Positions 1,064 through 3,849 of a stretch of DNA of 5,801 nucleotides are shown here, one piece after another. Source of the stretch: a virus (lineage: Duplodnaviria > Heunggongvirae > Uroviricota > Caudoviricetes); the IMG/VR virus record IMGVR_UViG_3300029126_000078, positions 1-5,801 of that record. One strand, given 5' to 3'. The notes below the pieces were generated by a model. The model had not been told where the DNA came from and searched no databases. It saw only the letters and a list, made by a program, of their open reading frames with translations. The first letter of the stretch is position 1; every line of letters starts with the position of its first letter. Both the position numbers and the translations under genes were made by a program.

Positions 1064-1067
1064 AATG

Positions 1068-1100
1068 AAAACAATAAGTTAGATTAAAACAATAAGTTAG
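1068..1100. repeat. Tandem 15-bp direct repeat AAAACAATAAGTTAG x2, candidate Int arm-type or att-proximal site
   Basis: Exact copies at 1068..1082 and 1086..1100, 3 bp apart, followed by GTTGGTGGTCAGTGGTGGTT (GGTGGT repeated). Located between the cargo gene stop and the host junction. Confidence 0.4.
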
Positions 1101-1121: not shown

Positions 1122-1844
1122 TTACGGGGTAATGCCAACCGCTGCCGCCACTTTGTCGCCACTAGTGCTTTGTTTTTCGAATTCATCTAAGGCTCTTTCA
1201 ACATCAGAAAGATACTCTTTGAATGAGTTCAAGATCATGCTTAACGAGCCCTCCATAAATAGGACCTGTTTTCCATCTTTTTTAAAAAAATCAGGATATT
1301 TTTCTATAAGTTCAATAATGCTTTTAATATTTTGCCCATCGTTTTCTAAGTATTTTGCATCATTATGCGCACAACTGTTTCTTAATTTTGTTATTTTTTT
1401 GATATTCGAATAGTGGGATGTTGACTTCATCCCTATCATTTTTTTGATAAATAGATGGCTCCTCTCAAATCCACTTCCTTTGAGATCTGAAACATTTATA
1501 GGAGAATGATGTCTATTAGCAAAGTTGTTACAGAATTTTTCTATTTCGTGCTCAAAAATTCCGAATATAGTTAAGAATACTGACCTGCGGATAATACTTG
1601 GGTAGTATTCTAAAAACATTTCATCGAGATCTAGCGATGAGCTGGTGAGTCCCATGTAATGATCAATTGACTGATATACACCATCTTCCGGAGATATTTC
1701 AATTATATATTCTTCAGGTCCTTTGTCTTTATATTCTGCTATACCCTTAGCGATTGATGATTCGCTATGAGTGATTAACGTCTCGATAATATCAAATGTT
1801 AAGGAGAAGTCGAATATTGGGAATTGAAACAAAAACTTAACCAT
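1122..1844 (-). CDS. AT-rich cargo gene; hypothetical protein with Rx4H (HEPN-like) motif, candidate abortive-infection/defence nuclease
   Basis: Track ORF 1122..1877. I prefer the ATG at 1844 (MVKFLFQFP...) because the integrase stop TAA is followed directly by AGGT and a 6-nt spacer (TAAAGGTTCAAGC-ATG), whereas the 1877 ATG has no RBS and lies inside int. The protein contains ...KKITKLRNSCAHNDAKY... (R-N-x3-H) in the C-terminal third. The gene is visibly AT-rich compared with flanking rcdA and int. Confidence 0.6.
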   Translation of the reverse strand: MVKFLFQFPIFDFSLTFDIIETLITHSESSIAKGIAEYKDKGPEEYIIEISPEDGVYQSIDHYMGLTSSSLDLDEMFLEYYPSIIRRSVFLTIFGIFEHEIEKFCNNFANRHHSPINVSDLKGSGFERSHLFIKKMIGMKSTSHYSNIKKITKLRNSCAHNDAKYLENDGQNIKSIIELIEKYPDFFKKDGKQVLFMEGSLSMILNSFKEYLSDVERALDEFEKQSTSGDKVAAAVGITP

Positions 1845-1854
1845 GCTTGAACCT

Positions 1855-2886
1855 TTAAGAATCTGATTTAGTAACATCCAAAGTTGCTAGTGGATTGAAA
1901 CGAAGAGCTGTCTCTAAGTGATCAGGTGATAGATGAGCATAACGCATAGTCATTTTTATGTCGTGATGTCCGAGGATTTTTTGCAAAGCAAGGATGTTTC
2001 CACCCGACATCATGAAATGCGCCGCAAACGTATGACGCAGAACGTGTGTAAGTTGACCGCGAGGGAGCACGATAGACGTTTTTTCCATCACGGATAAAAA
2101 TTGAAAATAGCAGTCTGTGAAGAAATTGAACCCATCAAGCGCCATGATCTCTTCATAAAGCTCTTTACTGATAGGGATGCTTCTGTTTTTCTTCCCCTTC
2201 GTTCTTACAAAGGTAATTCGGTATTTGGTCACCTGTGATCGGGTTAGGTTTATTGCTTCTCGCCAGCGTGCGCCTGTGCTTAAGCATATCTTGACTACCA
2301 GTGCCAGAATTGGGTCCTGACGTTTGCAATCATCCAGCAGTTCAACAATCTGCTCATGGGTAAGCCATGCCATCTCTTTTTCTGCGATGGTGAATTTTCG
2401 CATGTTCTCCAGTGGGTTTGGATACGACCATTCGCCCAGGCGGGATAGTTCGCTAAAAACACTACTTAGATAGCTTTGCTCCAGGTTAATGGTGACCGGG
2501 CTGGCCCCTTTCTTCCATTTCTCGCTGAAGTAGATCTCACCTGTCAGTCGTTTATCTCGATAATGGGCAAACATTTTAGATGTGAGATCGGTTGCAAGGG
2601 GATTGCCCAGAGCGTCAACCATCAGCAGCAATTTGTCATAGACATGCTGCCCAGCAGTCAGAGATTTACCATGTAGTTTGAACCATAGCTCAACCACGTC
2701 TTTCAGGGTTCGACGATCTACTGATTCGCCCAGCCAGGGCTTTGCTTCGGTTTCTTCCATCGTGTGACGCTCAAAAGCCAGTGCTTCGCCTTTGGTGGCG
2801 AATTGTTTACGCACACGACGCCCACTACGTCCGGCGGGGTAACATTCGCAAAGCCATTTTCCTGTGGTGAGTTTTCGTACTGCCAT
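1855..2886 (-). CDS. int: Phage tyrosine integrase, P2 Int-like
   Basis: Track ORF 1855..2964. The start at 2886 (MAVRKLTTGKW...) is preceded by GGAGGG with 8-nt spacing, and the recalled P2 Int N-terminus (MAIKKL...) aligns here. The C-terminal region has ...LSTGARWREA..., ...HVLRHTFAAHFMMSGGNILALQKILGHHDIKMTMRYAHL..., consistent with the tyrosine-recombinase catalytic core (R, H-x-x-R, Y). Confidence 0.9.
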   Translation of the reverse strand: MAVRKLTTGKWLCECYPAGRSGRRVRKQFATKGEALAFERHTMEETEAKPWLGESVDRRTLKDVVELWFKLHGKSLTAGQHVYDKLLLMVDALGNPLATDLTSKMFAHYRDKRLTGEIYFSEKWKKGASPVTINLEQSYLSSVFSELSRLGEWSYPNPLENMRKFTIAEKEMAWLTHEQIVELLDDCKRQDPILALVVKICLSTGARWREAINLTRSQVTKYRITFVRTKGKKNRSIPISKELYEEIMALDGFNFFTDCYFQFLSVMEKTSIVLPRGQLTHVLRHTFAAHFMMSGGNILALQKILGHHDIKMTMRYAHLSPDHLETALRFNPLATLDVTKSDS

Positions 2887-2910
2887 AAAAAATGCCCTCC
2901 AATAGAGAGC

Positions 2911-2939
2911 ATTTTTACTGTATGTATAACCAGTGTCAA
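2911..2939 (-). promoter_or_regulatory. Candidate sigma70 promoter for int (minus strand)
   Basis: On the minus strand: consensus -35 TTGACA (plus 2934..2939), 16-nt spacer, -10 TAAAAA (plus 2912..2917; AAAAAT with a 17-nt spacer). This is about 25 nt upstream of the int RBS. An inverted repeat ATGTATG(2939..2945)/CATACAT(2958..2964) lies immediately upstream. Confidence 0.35.
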
Positions 2940-3072
2940 TGTATGAAATCTTGCGACCATACATCTCACTGAAGCCATAATGAAGTTGGCTATTTTTTGC
3001 TATGTGAGTATGTGACTTTTGCGGTTAGCCTGCGGCTCATTGTTATATTAGGCGCAGATATAAAAGCAAAAA

Positions 3073-3264
3073 TTATCGCGAGTTTTTAGTACAGATTTTT
3101 TTTGATTTACTAATAGTTCCATCATTGCAAACGAACTTTCCATCGGAGGTACAGTGAGAGACACCTCCCTTTTTCCCAGAACAAGGATAATTTTTAGCAT
3201 AGGTAGTTAGTGGGTTTAATAACAAAGAGCATGATAAAACCACAAAAAATACCTTACCAAGCAT
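3073..3264 (-). CDS. Small secreted Cys-containing peptide (63 aa precursor), hypothetical; cargo gene within the cI-int operon
   Basis: ATG at 3264 preceded by GGGAGG with 5-nt spacing, starting 15 bp after the cI stop. N-terminus [23 protein letters not shown] looks like a Sec signal peptide (basic n-region, hydrophobic core, TYA cleavage-type site). Predicted mature part is about 40 aa, Lys-rich, with 4 Cys. The gene is AT-rich. Confidence 0.55.
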
Positions 3265-3279
3265 AGTTTCCTCCCGGTA

Positions 3280-3849
3280 TTACCTAACGTACTTAATTGT
3301 CAAACTTATAATTTTTCCAATTATTTCAACATCTTCTATCTTGCACTCGAAGGTTCTGTTTCCACCTTCAACGAAGATTCTTCCACCGGGTAAACGAGTA
3401 ATGTCGCGGATTGTTATTTCGCCATCAATACTTATTACCCATTTACCATCACGTATATCATCAAATTCTTTATCACAAATAAATTCAGAATTGTTATCTG
3501 TGATGACAAAAGGTTTTTTAAACGTAGAGGGTAGAAATCCCTTATCAAAAATATAAAAACCGTCTTCACGCAAGGCACCATCAGATAATACATATTTAGC
3601 AACTTCCATCGTATTTGTATTACCTGAAGTTTGCTTTGAACCATGTCCAGTTGTGAGCCAATTAAGCGAGGTGCCCGTTTCAAGGGCGCACTGGATTACC
3701 CATTCTGCTGGGAATGAGTCACGCATGTAGCGTGTAGCGAGTGTACTTTTAGAGATTCCTAAATGATCGCACAACGCCTGTCGAGTTTTGAATCCATAAG
3801 CTTCTACCATGCGCTCTATAGCGCCTCGTCCGCCTTTCTCCAAATTCAT
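3280..3849 (-). CDS. cI: Immunity repressor CI, phage 186 type
   Basis: Track ORF begins at a GTG (3855). The ATG at 3849 is preceded by GGAGTGACC (SD with 5-nt spacing) and gives MNLEKGGRGAIERMVEAYGFKTRQALCDHLGISKSTLATRYMRDSFPAEWVIQCALETGTSLNWLTTGHG.... The N-terminal HTH and the CALETG..L.WLLTG.G block match my recollection of 186 CI. It lies directly left of the switch region, transcribed leftward. Confidence 0.85.
   Translation of the reverse strand: MNLEKGGRGAIERMVEAYGFKTRQALCDHLGISKSTLATRYMRDSFPAEWVIQCALETGTSLNWLTTGHGSKQTSGNTNTMEVAKYVLSDGALREDGFYIFDKGFLPSTFKKPFVITDNNSEFICDKEFDDIRDGKWVISIDGEITIRDITRLPGGRIFVEGGNRTFECKIEDVEIIGKIISLTIKYVR

What the first reader, a model, noticed from the sequence alone, without database searches (positions are those of the whole stretch)
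3073..3264. Small secreted four-cysteine peptide inserted between cI and int
Seen in sequence: a 63-codon ORF with a strong RBS begins 15 bp after the cI stop, on the same strand. It encodes a signal peptide followed by a roughly 40-residue basic, Cys-containing mature peptide ([40 protein letters not shown]), and the gene is AT-rich. Established knowledge: genes co-transcribed with the immunity repressor are expressed in the lysogen, and this is where lysogenic-conversion and superinfection-exclusion factors sit in other phages (for example lambda rexAB). Inference: a periplasmic, probably disulfide-bonded peptide acting as an exclusion or conversion factor. I do not recognise the family.
Basis: partly seen in the sequence, partly recalled or inferred. 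Interest (0 to 1): 0.6.

Follow-up and report, generated by a model that had tools for sequence, protein, structure and literature searches.

The report
Prophage-borne secreted YdcA-family mini-protein
The small gene after the prophage repressor is real and encodes an exported, cysteine-knotted, strongly basic 40-residue peptide of the widespread YdcA family, whose function is unknown and which repeatedly sits in the repressor–integrase cargo slot of 186/HP1-type prophages.

Summary
A 63-codon ORF (3264→3073, minus strand) starts 15 nt after the cI stop behind a GGGAGG ribosome-binding site. It encodes a Sec-type signal peptide and a 40-residue, net +7, four-cysteine peptide.

The family is not unknown. 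It is the YdcA family: NCBIfam NF007463 at 116 bits against a cutoff of 93, Pfam PF27300, and phrog_6000. RefSeq already annotates this protein as WP_001321204.1.

The gene is under strong purifying selection, with synonymous sites saturated and the mature peptide almost unchanged. It occurs in 654 of 5426 complete E. coli genomes, including BL21.

Phage 186 has nothing between cI and int. Relatives carry PD-Lambda-1 or YdcA plus PDC-S20 in that position, which is a described minor defence hotspot. The order cI→YdcA→int recurs in Escherichia, Yersinia and Pasteurellaceae prophages, and phage HP2 has an unannotated copy.

The only structural relative is Legionella Dis2, a disulfide-pinned protein under the outer membrane. 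Some homologues are fused to secreted nucleases.

Export and lysogenic expression are well supported. An exclusion or conversion role is plausible but untested.

The parts
3073..3264 (-). YdcA-family precursor gene (63 codons; ATG 3264-3262, TAA 3075-3073)
   Evidence: ORF list. NCBIfam NF007463 at 116.1 bits against a cutoff of 93. phrog_6000 at E 4.6e-34. PF27300:YdcA is recorded on homologues. RefSeq CDS WP_001321204.1.
3196..3264 (-). Signal peptide, codons 1-23 ([23 protein letters not shown]), predicted SPase I cleavage after A23
   Evidence: Hydrophobicity profile and the -3/-1 rule. The family shows an AXA-type site throughout. This segment evolves almost freely (dN 0.88 against L169) while the mature part is constrained. 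C12 lies too early for a lipobox and is not conserved.
3076..3195 (-). Mature peptide, codons 24-63 ([40 protein letters not shown]); 4 Cys; net +7
   Evidence: Invariant or near-invariant positions are P27, C28, S29, G30, K32, G33, G34, C38, F44, C46, G49, S52, S54, K55 and C58. AF2 pLDDT is about 90 for residues 31-50. It matches a lobe of Legionella Dis2.
3265..3279 (-). 15-nt cI-to-ORF spacer with Shine-Dalgarno GGGAGG (3275-3270)
   Evidence: Read directly from the sequence. No terminator-like site was found on this strand. In other prophages the cI-to-YdcA gap is -1 to 47 nt.
3280..3849 (-). 186-type CI immunity repressor, first gene of the lysogenic operon
   Evidence: PF07022 at 2.8e-33 and PF16452 at 1.1e-28. 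RefSeq annotates it as 'phage repressor protein CI'.
2976..3072 (-). Lineage-specific spacer downstream of the ORF. In the sister E. coli prophage L169 a KAP-NTPase (PDC-S20) gene is inserted at this point.
   Evidence: blastn breakpoints against L169 and phage 813R9. L169 gene map. PADLOC result.
2887..2916 (-). Hairpin AAAAAUGCUCUCU-AUU-GGAGGGCAUUUUU plus U-tract, directly before the int ATG. It is terminator-like and buries the int Shine-Dalgarno sequence.
   Evidence: RNA fold of 2887-3072: MFE -50 kcal/mol, z = -3.95. The stem is kept by different sequences in E. coli L169, phage 813R9 and three Yersinia prophages.
2911..2939 (-). Promoter-like TTGACA-17-AAAAAT within the conserved int upstream region
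   Evidence: Consensus scan, 10 of 12 matches. The TTGAC and ACTG...CAGT blocks are invariant in the alignment. Function not shown.
1855..2886 (-). Tyrosine integrase (P2/186 type)
   Evidence: PF24624 and PF00589. 55% identity to 186 Int.

Best explanation
The ORF is a genuine gene for a YdcA-family mini-protein, carried as cargo in the cI-int slot of a 186-like prophage inserted next to rcdA.

Proposed mechanism:
1. It is transcribed with cI from the lysogenic promoter and translated from its own strong ribosome-binding site, so it is made continuously in lysogens. A terminator-like hairpin just before int probably ends or attenuates this transcript.
2. The precursor is exported by Sec and cut by signal peptidase I after A23.
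3. The 40-residue product is oxidised in the periplasm to a compact two-disulfide module with a strongly cationic surface.
4. It needs no dedicated partner gene.

Proposed function (inference): it binds a conserved anionic or outer-membrane-associated envelope component. Candidates are DNA in transit, the inner face of the outer membrane, or an envelope-spanning machine. In doing so it acts as a lysogen-expressed protective factor that hinders entry of competing phage or foreign DNA, that is, superinfection exclusion.

Confidence by step: identity and family about 0.95; export and disulfides about 0.85; expression in the lysogen about 0.7; exclusion-type function about 0.3.
For: Identity: NF007463 scores above its curated cutoff, and phrog_6000 and PF27300 also match.

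Real coding gene: the mature region has dN/dS 0.02 against L090. Against L169, synonymous sites are saturated with only 3 nonsynonymous changes. All 79 homologous ORFs that could be delimited in alpha-, beta- and gamma-proteobacteria are intact.

Export: signal-peptide features are present across the family. K-12 YdcA is described as having a signal sequence and predicted to be periplasmic (bioRxiv 10.1101/2024.02.12.579971). Dis2 is seen in the periplasmic outer-membrane cap (PMC8486379).

Disulfides and fold: there are four invariant Cys. The PDB profile hit to Dis2 has E 6.6e-4, and the single-sequence hit E 2.2e-4. The top Foldseek hit is 7mud_AN at probability 0.98 and 38% identity. Dis2 lobes are pinned by disulfides (PMC8486379).

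Operon: same strand, 15-nt gap, Shine-Dalgarno sequence, and no terminator between cI and the ORF. In 186 the pL transcript runs through cI into int (record annotation).

Cargo slot: 186 has nothing between cI and int. Phage 813R9 and Klebsiella phage KP12 carry PD-Lambda-1 there, and L169 carries YdcA plus PDC-S20. A cI-int hotspot is described in K139-like phages (PMC9122126), and an integrase-primase hotspot in P2-like prophages (PMC13586616).

Recurrence: the order cI→YdcA→int, with gaps of -1 to 47 nt, occurs in two E. coli lineages, Escherichia sp., three Yersinia species, HP2/S2, H. parainfluenzae and a Pasteurellaceae MAG, although their cI proteins are only 31-38% identical. CI and integrase are the only recurrent neighbours across 72 diverse loci.

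Polyanion or DNA hint: the peptide is net +7. Family members are fused N-terminally to two unrelated secreted nuclease families, in 5 of 148 representatives plus locus L124, and also occur as 2-3 tandem copies.
Against: - No experiment or omics data on expression or phenotype was accessible.
- No PADLOC model matches the peptide.
- Many family members are single chromosomal genes among housekeeping genes, as in Moraxella bovoculi, protein P0052 and E. coli K-12 ydcA. This argues for a general envelope role rather than a phage-specific one.
- The only published phenotype in the family is sensitivity of a ydcA deletion to 3-hydroxypropionate and reported acid induction (PMC7642389). That is unrelated to phage.
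- Deleting dis2 in Legionella gives only subtle effects (PMC12716638).
- Nuclease fusions are rare and could reflect anchoring rather than DNA binding.
- No signal-peptide predictor was run.
Confidence: 0.4

Rival explanations
1. Host-fitness (lysogenic conversion) factor. The prophage supplies an extra, constitutively expressed copy of a housekeeping-type periplasmic YdcA protein. This would improve envelope robustness, for example against acid or organic-acid stress, and would have no direct effect on other phages.
For: The chromosomal paralogue ydcA is present in E. coli (NF007462 at E 5.8e-19; DNA match annotated ydcA). A ydcA deletion is sensitive to 3-hydroxypropionate, and ydcA is reported as YdcI-controlled and acid-induced (PMC7642389). 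Core-like chromosomal copies exist without mobile-element context. The defective BL21 prophage still keeps an intact cI-YdcA-int.
Against: The recurrent, tight linkage to cI in a defence hotspot, next to PDC-S20, fits inter-phage competition better. The K-12 phenotype is weak, comes from a single study, and has no mechanism.
Confidence: 0.3
2. Adaptor of an envelope-spanning machine. Like Dis2 in the Dot/Icm outer-membrane cap, the peptide would dock onto outer-membrane lipoproteins or secretin-type complexes and modulate their activity. Possible targets include pili, type II or type IV secretion, or conjugation.
For: Dis2 is the only structural relative. Dis2 contacts DotK, DotC and DotD beneath the outer membrane (PMC12716638). 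Homologues occur on conjugative and mobilizable plasmids. One homologue is fused to a VasL (type VI secretion) domain.
Against: No secretion-system genes lie near the gene in the window or in most loci. Dis2 has two lobes and five disulfides, whereas this peptide has a single lobe. The 'conjugal transfer protein' label is an unsupported automatic name.
Confidence: 0.1
3. Periplasmic inhibitor of an enzyme such as a protease, a nuclease like Endonuclease I, or a lysozyme or transglycosylase.
For: It is a small disulfide-rich secreted peptide. There are weak sequence matches to plant Pin-II proteinase inhibitors that share the C..G.KG...DG.FVC pattern (E 0.06-1). Fusion to nucleases could reflect a pro-domain or inhibitor role.
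Against: The Pin-II matches are not significant. Pin-II domains have 8 Cys and a reactive loop that is absent here. There is no cognate enzyme gene nearby.
Confidence: 0.07
4. Secreted cationic antimicrobial peptide or bacteriocin used against competitors.
For: It is cationic, cysteine-stabilised and about 4 kDa, which superficially resembles a defensin.
Against: It has a Sec signal peptide and not a double-glycine leader. No exporter or immunity gene is adjacent. Conserved single-copy chromosomal members occur in many species.
Confidence: 0.03
5. Chance ORF in AT-rich intergenic DNA, not a functional gene.
For: It is short (63 codons) and AT-rich.
Against: Family HMMs score above their curated cutoff. 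The exhaustive search found 309 protein clusters (50% identity) with E ≤ 1e-3. dN/dS is 0.02, and reading frames are intact across three proteobacterial classes.
Confidence: 0.01

Closest known systems
E. coli K-12 YdcA and the YdcA family (Pfam PF27300; NCBIfam PRK10040 models NF007462/NF007463; phrog_6000)
   Same: Same architecture: a signal peptide followed by a domain of about 35 residues with the motif PCSGKKGG[VI]SHC…GKF[VI]CNDG[ST]xSxSKKxC, four Cys, and 55-65 aa overall. The ORF scores above the NF007463 cutoff.
   Different: This copy is prophage-borne and wired to the immunity repressor, whereas K-12 ydcA is a chromosomal gene beside rydC/cybB. The ORF scores below the cutoff of the K-12-type model NF007462 (68 against 118 bits). 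The family has no established function.
Legionella pneumophila Dis2 (Lpg0823), Dot/Icm T4SS outer-membrane-cap protein (PDB 7MUC/7MUD chain AN)
   Same: Each Dis2 lobe carries the GG[IV]xxC…G..VCN[DN]G..S motif. It is exported, disulfide-stabilised, and sits beneath the outer membrane. It is the only Foldseek or sequence relative in the PDB.
   Different: Dis2 has two lobes and five disulfides and is a stoichiometric part of a type IVB secretion machine. The prophage peptide has one lobe, two possible disulfides, and no secretion genes nearby. [quoted passage not shown]
Vibrio phage K139 Glo and the cI-int hotspot of K139-like phages
   Same: It is a periplasmic protein encoded in the lysogeny region of a P2-related phage (PMC4870250). 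The cI-int interval is described as a defence hotspot (PMC9122126).
   Different: There is no sequence similarity: a tblastn search of phage records found no Vibrio hit. That Glo lies between cI and int, and that it contributes to exclusion, is recalled from the K139 literature and was not verified here.
Lambda rexAB, P22 sieA/sieB, T4 imm/sp (repressor-linked or envelope superinfection-exclusion genes)
   Same: As with rexAB, the gene is co-transcribed with the immunity repressor. As with Sie, Imm and Sp, the product is envelope-located.
   Different: There is no homology. Those proteins are membrane or cytoplasmic proteins with demonstrated phenotypes, and none is demonstrated here.
PD-Lambda-1 and PDC-S20 (KAP NTPase) cargo of sister prophages
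   Same: They occupy the same cI-int slot in prophages whose integrase is about 99% identical (PD-Lambda-1 carriers) or whose int DNA is 91% identical (L169, PDC-S20).
   Different: They are large cytoplasmic ATPase or nuclease-type defence proteins. In L169 the YdcA gene co-occurs with PDC-S20 instead of replacing it, and it stays attached to cI.

Membership tests
YdcA family (NF007463 / PF27300 / phrog_6000) | Profile score above the curated family cutoff | tested here: met
   NF007463 scores 116.1 bits against a cutoff of 93, covering model positions 1-58 of 58. phrog_6000 matches at E 4.6e-34. Homologues are precomputed as PF27300:YdcA. PF27300 is absent from the local Pfam copy.
YdcA family (NF007463 / PF27300 / phrog_6000) | N-terminal signal peptide followed by a single domain of about 35 aa with four conserved Cys and the PCSGKKGG / FVCNDGxxSxSK motifs | tested here: met
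   Alignments A1 and A2 show C28, C38, C46, C58, P27, G33, G34, F44, G49, S52 and S54 as invariant or at least 90% conserved.
Sec/SPase I-exported periplasmic protein | n-region charge, 10-15-residue hydrophobic core, small residues at -3/-1 | tested here: met
   K4, V5-L16, and T21-Y-A23|K24. The same pattern is seen in 79 homologues. This is a heuristic assessment, because no SignalP run was possible.
Sec/SPase I-exported periplasmic protein | Demonstrated export (PhoA/Bla fusion, proteomics) | not testable with these tools
   There is only indirect support: the homologue Dis2 is observed in the periplasmic outer-membrane cap (PMC8486379).
Bacterial lipoprotein (SPase II) | Lipobox [LVI][ASTVI][GAS]C at about residues 15-35 | tested here: not met
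   The only Cys in the signal region is C12 (V-L-S-C), which is too close to the N-terminus and is not conserved in homologues.
Superinfection-exclusion / lysogenic-conversion moron | Encoded in a prophage accessory slot and co-oriented with the repressor, with no intervening terminator | tested here: met
   The hotspot is described in PMC9122126 and PMC13586616.
Superinfection-exclusion / lysogenic-conversion moron | Expressed in the lysogen | not testable with these tools
   This is inferred from operon structure only. BL21 and REL606 omics data could settle it.
Superinfection-exclusion / lysogenic-conversion moron | Confers resistance to infecting phage or a host phenotype | not testable with these tools
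   No experimental data were found.
Known anti-phage defence proteins (PADLOC-DB 2.0) | Match to a defence-protein HMM | tested here: not met
   The peptide matches 0 families at E ≤ 0.01.
Dis2 (Lpg0823) T4SS component | Sequence and fold similarity to a Dis2 lobe | tested here: met
   hmmsearch E 6.6e-4 and phmmer E 2.2e-4. Foldseek probability 0.98, 38% identity over 39 columns, E 0.07.
Dis2 (Lpg0823) T4SS component | Two tandem lobes with five disulfides, and association with a Dot/Icm type IVB system | tested here: not met
   The peptide has a single lobe and four Cys. There are no T4SS genes in the window or its flanks.
Pin-II (potato type II) proteinase inhibitors | Significant similarity, 8-Cys framework and reactive-site loop | tested here: not met
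   E-values of 0.06-1 only, and four Cys.
DUF3761 (idea of a circular permutation, recalled from memory) | Pfam match of the native or permuted sequence | tested here: not met
   No Pfam hit at E ≤ 5 for the permuted peptide, and none for the native peptide.

The most novel reading that the evidence does not exclude
The YdcA domain may be a previously unrecognised periplasmic polyanion- or DNA-binding disulfide knot. Prophages (at the cI-int slot, and in the structural region in Moraxella and Acinetobacter phages) and plasmids would deploy it alone to intercept or stall incoming foreign DNA in the periplasm. The same module would tether secreted SNase and Endonuclease_NS nucleases to their substrate and decorate the Dot/Icm channel (Dis2). 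That would make it a new, very small class of entry-blocking exclusion factor, widespread in alpha-, beta- and gamma-proteobacteria.
Probability: 0.15. Interest if true: 0.7.

Novelty: new member of a known kind. Interest (0 to 1): 0.42.

Why it matters
The gene belongs to a widespread family with no known function. The exhaustive search found 309 protein clusters (50% identity) with E ≤ 1e-3. The family is present in at least 534 IMG/VR viral contigs and in 12% of complete E. coli genomes.

The peptide is among the most conserved small secreted peptides in proteobacteria. Its mature domain is about 75% identical between E. coli and Haemophilus prophages whose repressors share only 32% identity.

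Its fixed position directly behind the repressor, in a slot otherwise filled by anti-phage systems, makes it a concrete and cheap candidate for a new envelope-level exclusion or conversion factor. The laboratory strain BL21 carries the identical protein, so the idea is directly testable.

The work also gives Legionella Dis2, described in the papers read here as species-specific and without significant structural similarity in the PDB, a large set of relatives. It adds a missed gene to the classic phage genomes HP2 and S2.

Tried and rejected
- **Chance ORF:** rejected on conservation and dN/dS.
- **Lipoprotein:** rejected, because there is no valid lipobox.
- **DUF3761 circular permutation (idea from memory):** no Pfam hit for the native or permuted sequence.
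- **Pin-II protease inhibitor similarity:** E 0.06-1, not significant.
- **NCBIfam lpg1681 family:** E 0.11, not significant.
- **PADLOC:** no hit for the peptide.
- **Rfam:** nothing in the window.
- **Megablast of the cI-int region against phage genomes:** no match.
- **Conserved partner gene:** the neighbour census of 72 loci found none apart from CI and integrase.
- **Literature:** searches for ydcA, 'YdcA family', PRK10040, PF27300 and WP_001321204 found no functional study. The 'ydcA' names on plasmid pS88 and in Bacillus refer to unrelated genes.
- **Cluster lookup:** my exact-sequence lookup of the window protein failed because I gave the wrong end coordinate. The representative P0001 differs from the window protein by 2 residues.

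Full report
**Setting.** The window is the left end of a 186-like (P2-related) prophage inserted beside rcdA (ybjK) in E. coli. Megablast finds at least 80% of the window in 546 of 5426 complete genomes. RefSeq annotation of an identical locus gives this gene order: ybjJ, rcdA, a 240-aa hypothetical, integrase, a 63-aa hypothetical (WP_001321204.1), CI, an Apl/Cox-like gene, CII, Fil, DUF5347, DUF2732, TraR/DksA, Dam methylase and the replication endonuclease. Pfam confirms a 186-type CI (PF07022 and PF16452), CII (PF06892) and a tyrosine integrase.

**Checking the observation.**
- The ORF runs 3264→3073 on the minus strand. Its ATG is the first start codon in the frame.
- The cI stop is TAA at 3282-3280. 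The spacer is the 15-nt TACCGGGAGGAAACT, with GGGAGG five bases before the ATG.
- No terminator-like site lies between cI and the ORF on that strand.
- The precursor has one basic residue, a 12-residue hydrophobic core, P18, and T-Y-A|K at -3/-1. The mature peptide is 40 aa, 4.27 kDa, pI 9.6 and net +7, with four Cys.
- GC content is 34.9% against 44.6% for the window. The C-terminal half of cI is as AT-rich, at 33%.

**What it is.**
- The family is recognisable. The ORF matches NCBIfam NF007463 (PRK10040.1-2) at 116 bits, above the curated cutoff of 93. It matches the model of K-12 YdcA length (57 aa), NF007462, at E 5.8e-19, and phrog_6000 at E 4.6e-34.
- Homologues carry the precomputed Pfam family PF27300 'YdcA'. 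That family is newer than the local Pfam copy, which explains the empty Pfam scan.
- An exhaustive HMMER search of 1.84 billion cluster representatives finds 309 clusters at E ≤ 1e-3.
- Across alpha-, beta- and gamma-proteobacteria the mature domain is nearly invariant: PCSGKKGG[VI]SHC…GKF[VI]CNDG[ST]xSxSKKxC. The signal peptide is free to vary.
- Codon analysis shows strong purifying selection on the mature part. Against Escherichia sp. L090 there are 9 synonymous and 1 nonsynonymous differences (dN/dS 0.02). Against the sister E. coli prophage L169 there are 18 synonymous differences (saturated) and 3 nonsynonymous ones, while the signal region of the same pair has dN 0.88.
- The gene is present in 654 of 5426 complete E. 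coli genomes. BL21 carries the identical protein in a defective copy of the prophage.

**Is it an insertion?**
- In phage 186, cI (22433-23011) and int (21423-22433) overlap by one base. The 393 nt at 2887-3279 are therefore extra here.
- Escherichia phage vB_EcoM-813R9 and Klebsiella phage KP12 have about 99% identical integrases and 54% identical CI. In the same slot they hold a 558-aa protein that is PD-Lambda-1 (PADLOC E 3e-120).
- A sister E. coli prophage at the same rcdA site has cI, then YdcA (61 aa, 70% identical), then a KAP NTPase, then int. The NTPase is PADLOC candidate PDC-S20 (E 1e-171).
- Against that prophage, blastn breakpoints show that homology runs through cI and the YdcA gene, stops about 8 nt before its end, and resumes 89 nt upstream of int. 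The YdcA gene therefore travels with cI, and further cargo is added downstream of it.
- The literature describes a defence hotspot between cI and int in K139-like P2-related phages (PMC9122126). It also describes minor hotspots between integrase and primase, and between integrase and att, in P2-like prophages (PMC13586616).

**Recurrence.**
- tblastn of the window's CI and Int against all fetched loci shows the order cI→YdcA-like→int in several prophages. These are Escherichia (two lineages plus Escherichia sp.), Yersinia alsatica, Y. aldovae and Y. nurmii, Haemophilus phage HP2 (phage S2 has the same match at identical coordinates), H. parainfluenzae and a Pasteurellaceae MAG. In Buttiauxella a cI homologue lies 409 nt upstream, but no integrase was detected.
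- Gaps between cI and the YdcA-like gene are 15, 15, 23, 47, 47, 45, -1, -1 and -1 nt (409 nt in Buttiauxella).
- These CI proteins are only 31-38% identical to the window's CI, 32% for HP2. The mature peptides are about 65-75% identical.
- In HP2 the 60-aa ORF (L002 2920-3102) is not annotated and overlaps the cI stop.
- I took the immediate neighbours of 72 diverse genomic loci, using a crude ORF caller. The only recurrent Pfam families were Phage_CI_repr/Phage_CI_C (6 loci) and Phage_integrase (6 loci). Nothing else exceeded 3. There is thus no dedicated partner gene.
- Elsewhere the gene is a moron in the structural region of Moraxella and Acinetobacter phages. It also lies on Acinetobacter and Rhizobium plasmids and in at least 534 IMG/VR contigs.
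- It also occurs as an ordinary chromosomal gene among housekeeping genes.

**Structure and relatives.**
- AlphaFold2 with 42 homologues gives mean pLDDT 78.8, and about 90 over residues 31-50.
- This supports an exported, disulfide-bonded fold for the prophage peptide.

**Functional hints.**
- Among 148 diverse representatives, four carry a C-terminal Endonuclease_NS domain and one a staphylococcal-nuclease domain. Others carry VasL, DUF4124 or a PBCV-type basic module, and several are 2-3 tandem repeats. A Methylococcales genome confirms the Endonuclease_NS fusion (L124).
- In HP2 the next gene encodes a secreted OB-fold (tRNA_anti-like) protein.
- Together with the net +7 charge, this suggests a module that binds a polyanion such as DNA, or that anchors proteins in the envelope. 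This is inference and not a demonstrated activity.
- K-12 YdcA is described as having a signal sequence, predicted to be periplasmic, and of unknown function (bioRxiv 10.1101/2024.02.12.579971). Its deletion sensitises E. coli W to 3-hydroxypropionate, and it is reported as YdcI-controlled and acid-induced (PMC7642389).

**Transcription unit.**
- The 186-nt spacer before int folds unusually well (z = -3.95).
- It ends in a hairpin, AAAAAUGCUCUCU-AUU-GGAGGGCAUUUUU, followed by the int ATG. This is a terminator-like stem plus U-tract that also buries the int Shine-Dalgarno sequence.
- The stem is maintained by different sequences in E. coli L169, phage 813R9 and three Yersinia prophages, next to invariant TTGAC and ACTG…CAGT blocks.
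- The consensus scanner missed the hairpin, probably because the U-tract pairs with an upstream A-tract.
- The likely reading is that the lysogenic transcript is mainly cI-YdcA, with int expression gated separately.

**Verdict.**
- The gene is an already catalogued, functionally uncharacterised YdcA-family member.
- Export, disulfide bonding and expression with the repressor are well supported.
- An exclusion role is a reasonable but untested inference, at about 0.3. A general envelope-fitness role is about equally likely.
- As far as my searches show, these points are new: the repeated cI-linked placement across Enterobacterales and Pasteurellales, the missed HP2/S2 gene, the link to Dis2, and the nuclease fusions.
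- Interest is moderate. This is not a new kind of system, but it is a well-defined, widespread and easily testable unknown.

Noticed in passing
window 2887-2939 (- strand): A conserved regulatory block lies upstream of int. It has a promoter-like TTGACA-17-AAAAAT, an ACTG…CAGT inverted repeat, and a 13-bp hairpin plus U-tract that overlaps the int Shine-Dalgarno sequence directly before the ATG. The stem is kept by compensatory changes in E. coli and Yersinia prophages. It looks like a terminator or translational gate for int.
   Followed up: partly
window 1122-1844 (- strand): A 240-aa AT-rich (34% GC) ORF lies between int and the prophage end. It gives weak HEPN/Abi-like hits: PF18735 at E 0.006, PADLOC HEC-01A and RTasHEPN at E about 0.005, and phrog_21382 at 3e-9. 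It is absent from sister prophages L169 and L090 and is replaced by a 110-aa protein in BL21. It is probably cargo of the integrase-att hotspot described in PMC13586616.
   Followed up: partly
[not shown]
   Followed up: yes
PDB 7MUC/7MUD chain AN (Legionella Dis2, Lpg0823): Both lobes of Dis2 carry the YdcA-family motif. [quoted passage not shown] It therefore appears to belong to a family widespread in proteobacteria.
   Followed up: partly
P0134, P0153, P0167, P0177; L124 5989-6936: YdcA domains are fused after the signal peptide to secreted SNase or Endonuclease_NS nucleases. Tandem 2x and 3x YdcA proteins also occur (P0066, P0078, P0065).
   Followed up: partly
L007 3091-4767; L169 6198-7529: The same cI-int slot in closely related prophages carries PD-Lambda-1 (E 3e-120), or YdcA plus the KAP-NTPase candidate PDC-S20 (E 1e-171).
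   Followed up: yes
window 1065-1100: A tandem 18-nt direct repeat, AT(G/T)AAAACAATAAGTTAG, lies between the rcdA terminator region and the prophage end. It could be an Int arm-type or att-associated site.
   Followed up: no
L089 (JAEWTL010000113.1, 'MAG: Bacillota bacterium'): A 3-kb contig in a Bacillota MAG carries this Escherichia prophage segment, with cI 94%, YdcA 98% and int 99% protein identity. This is probably binning contamination.
   Followed up: no
L098 5938-6120 (Atlantibacter sp. MAG): Here the YdcA-like gene lies beyond int, on the att side, and not between cI and int. Both cargo slots of 186-like prophages can therefore host it.
   Followed up: no
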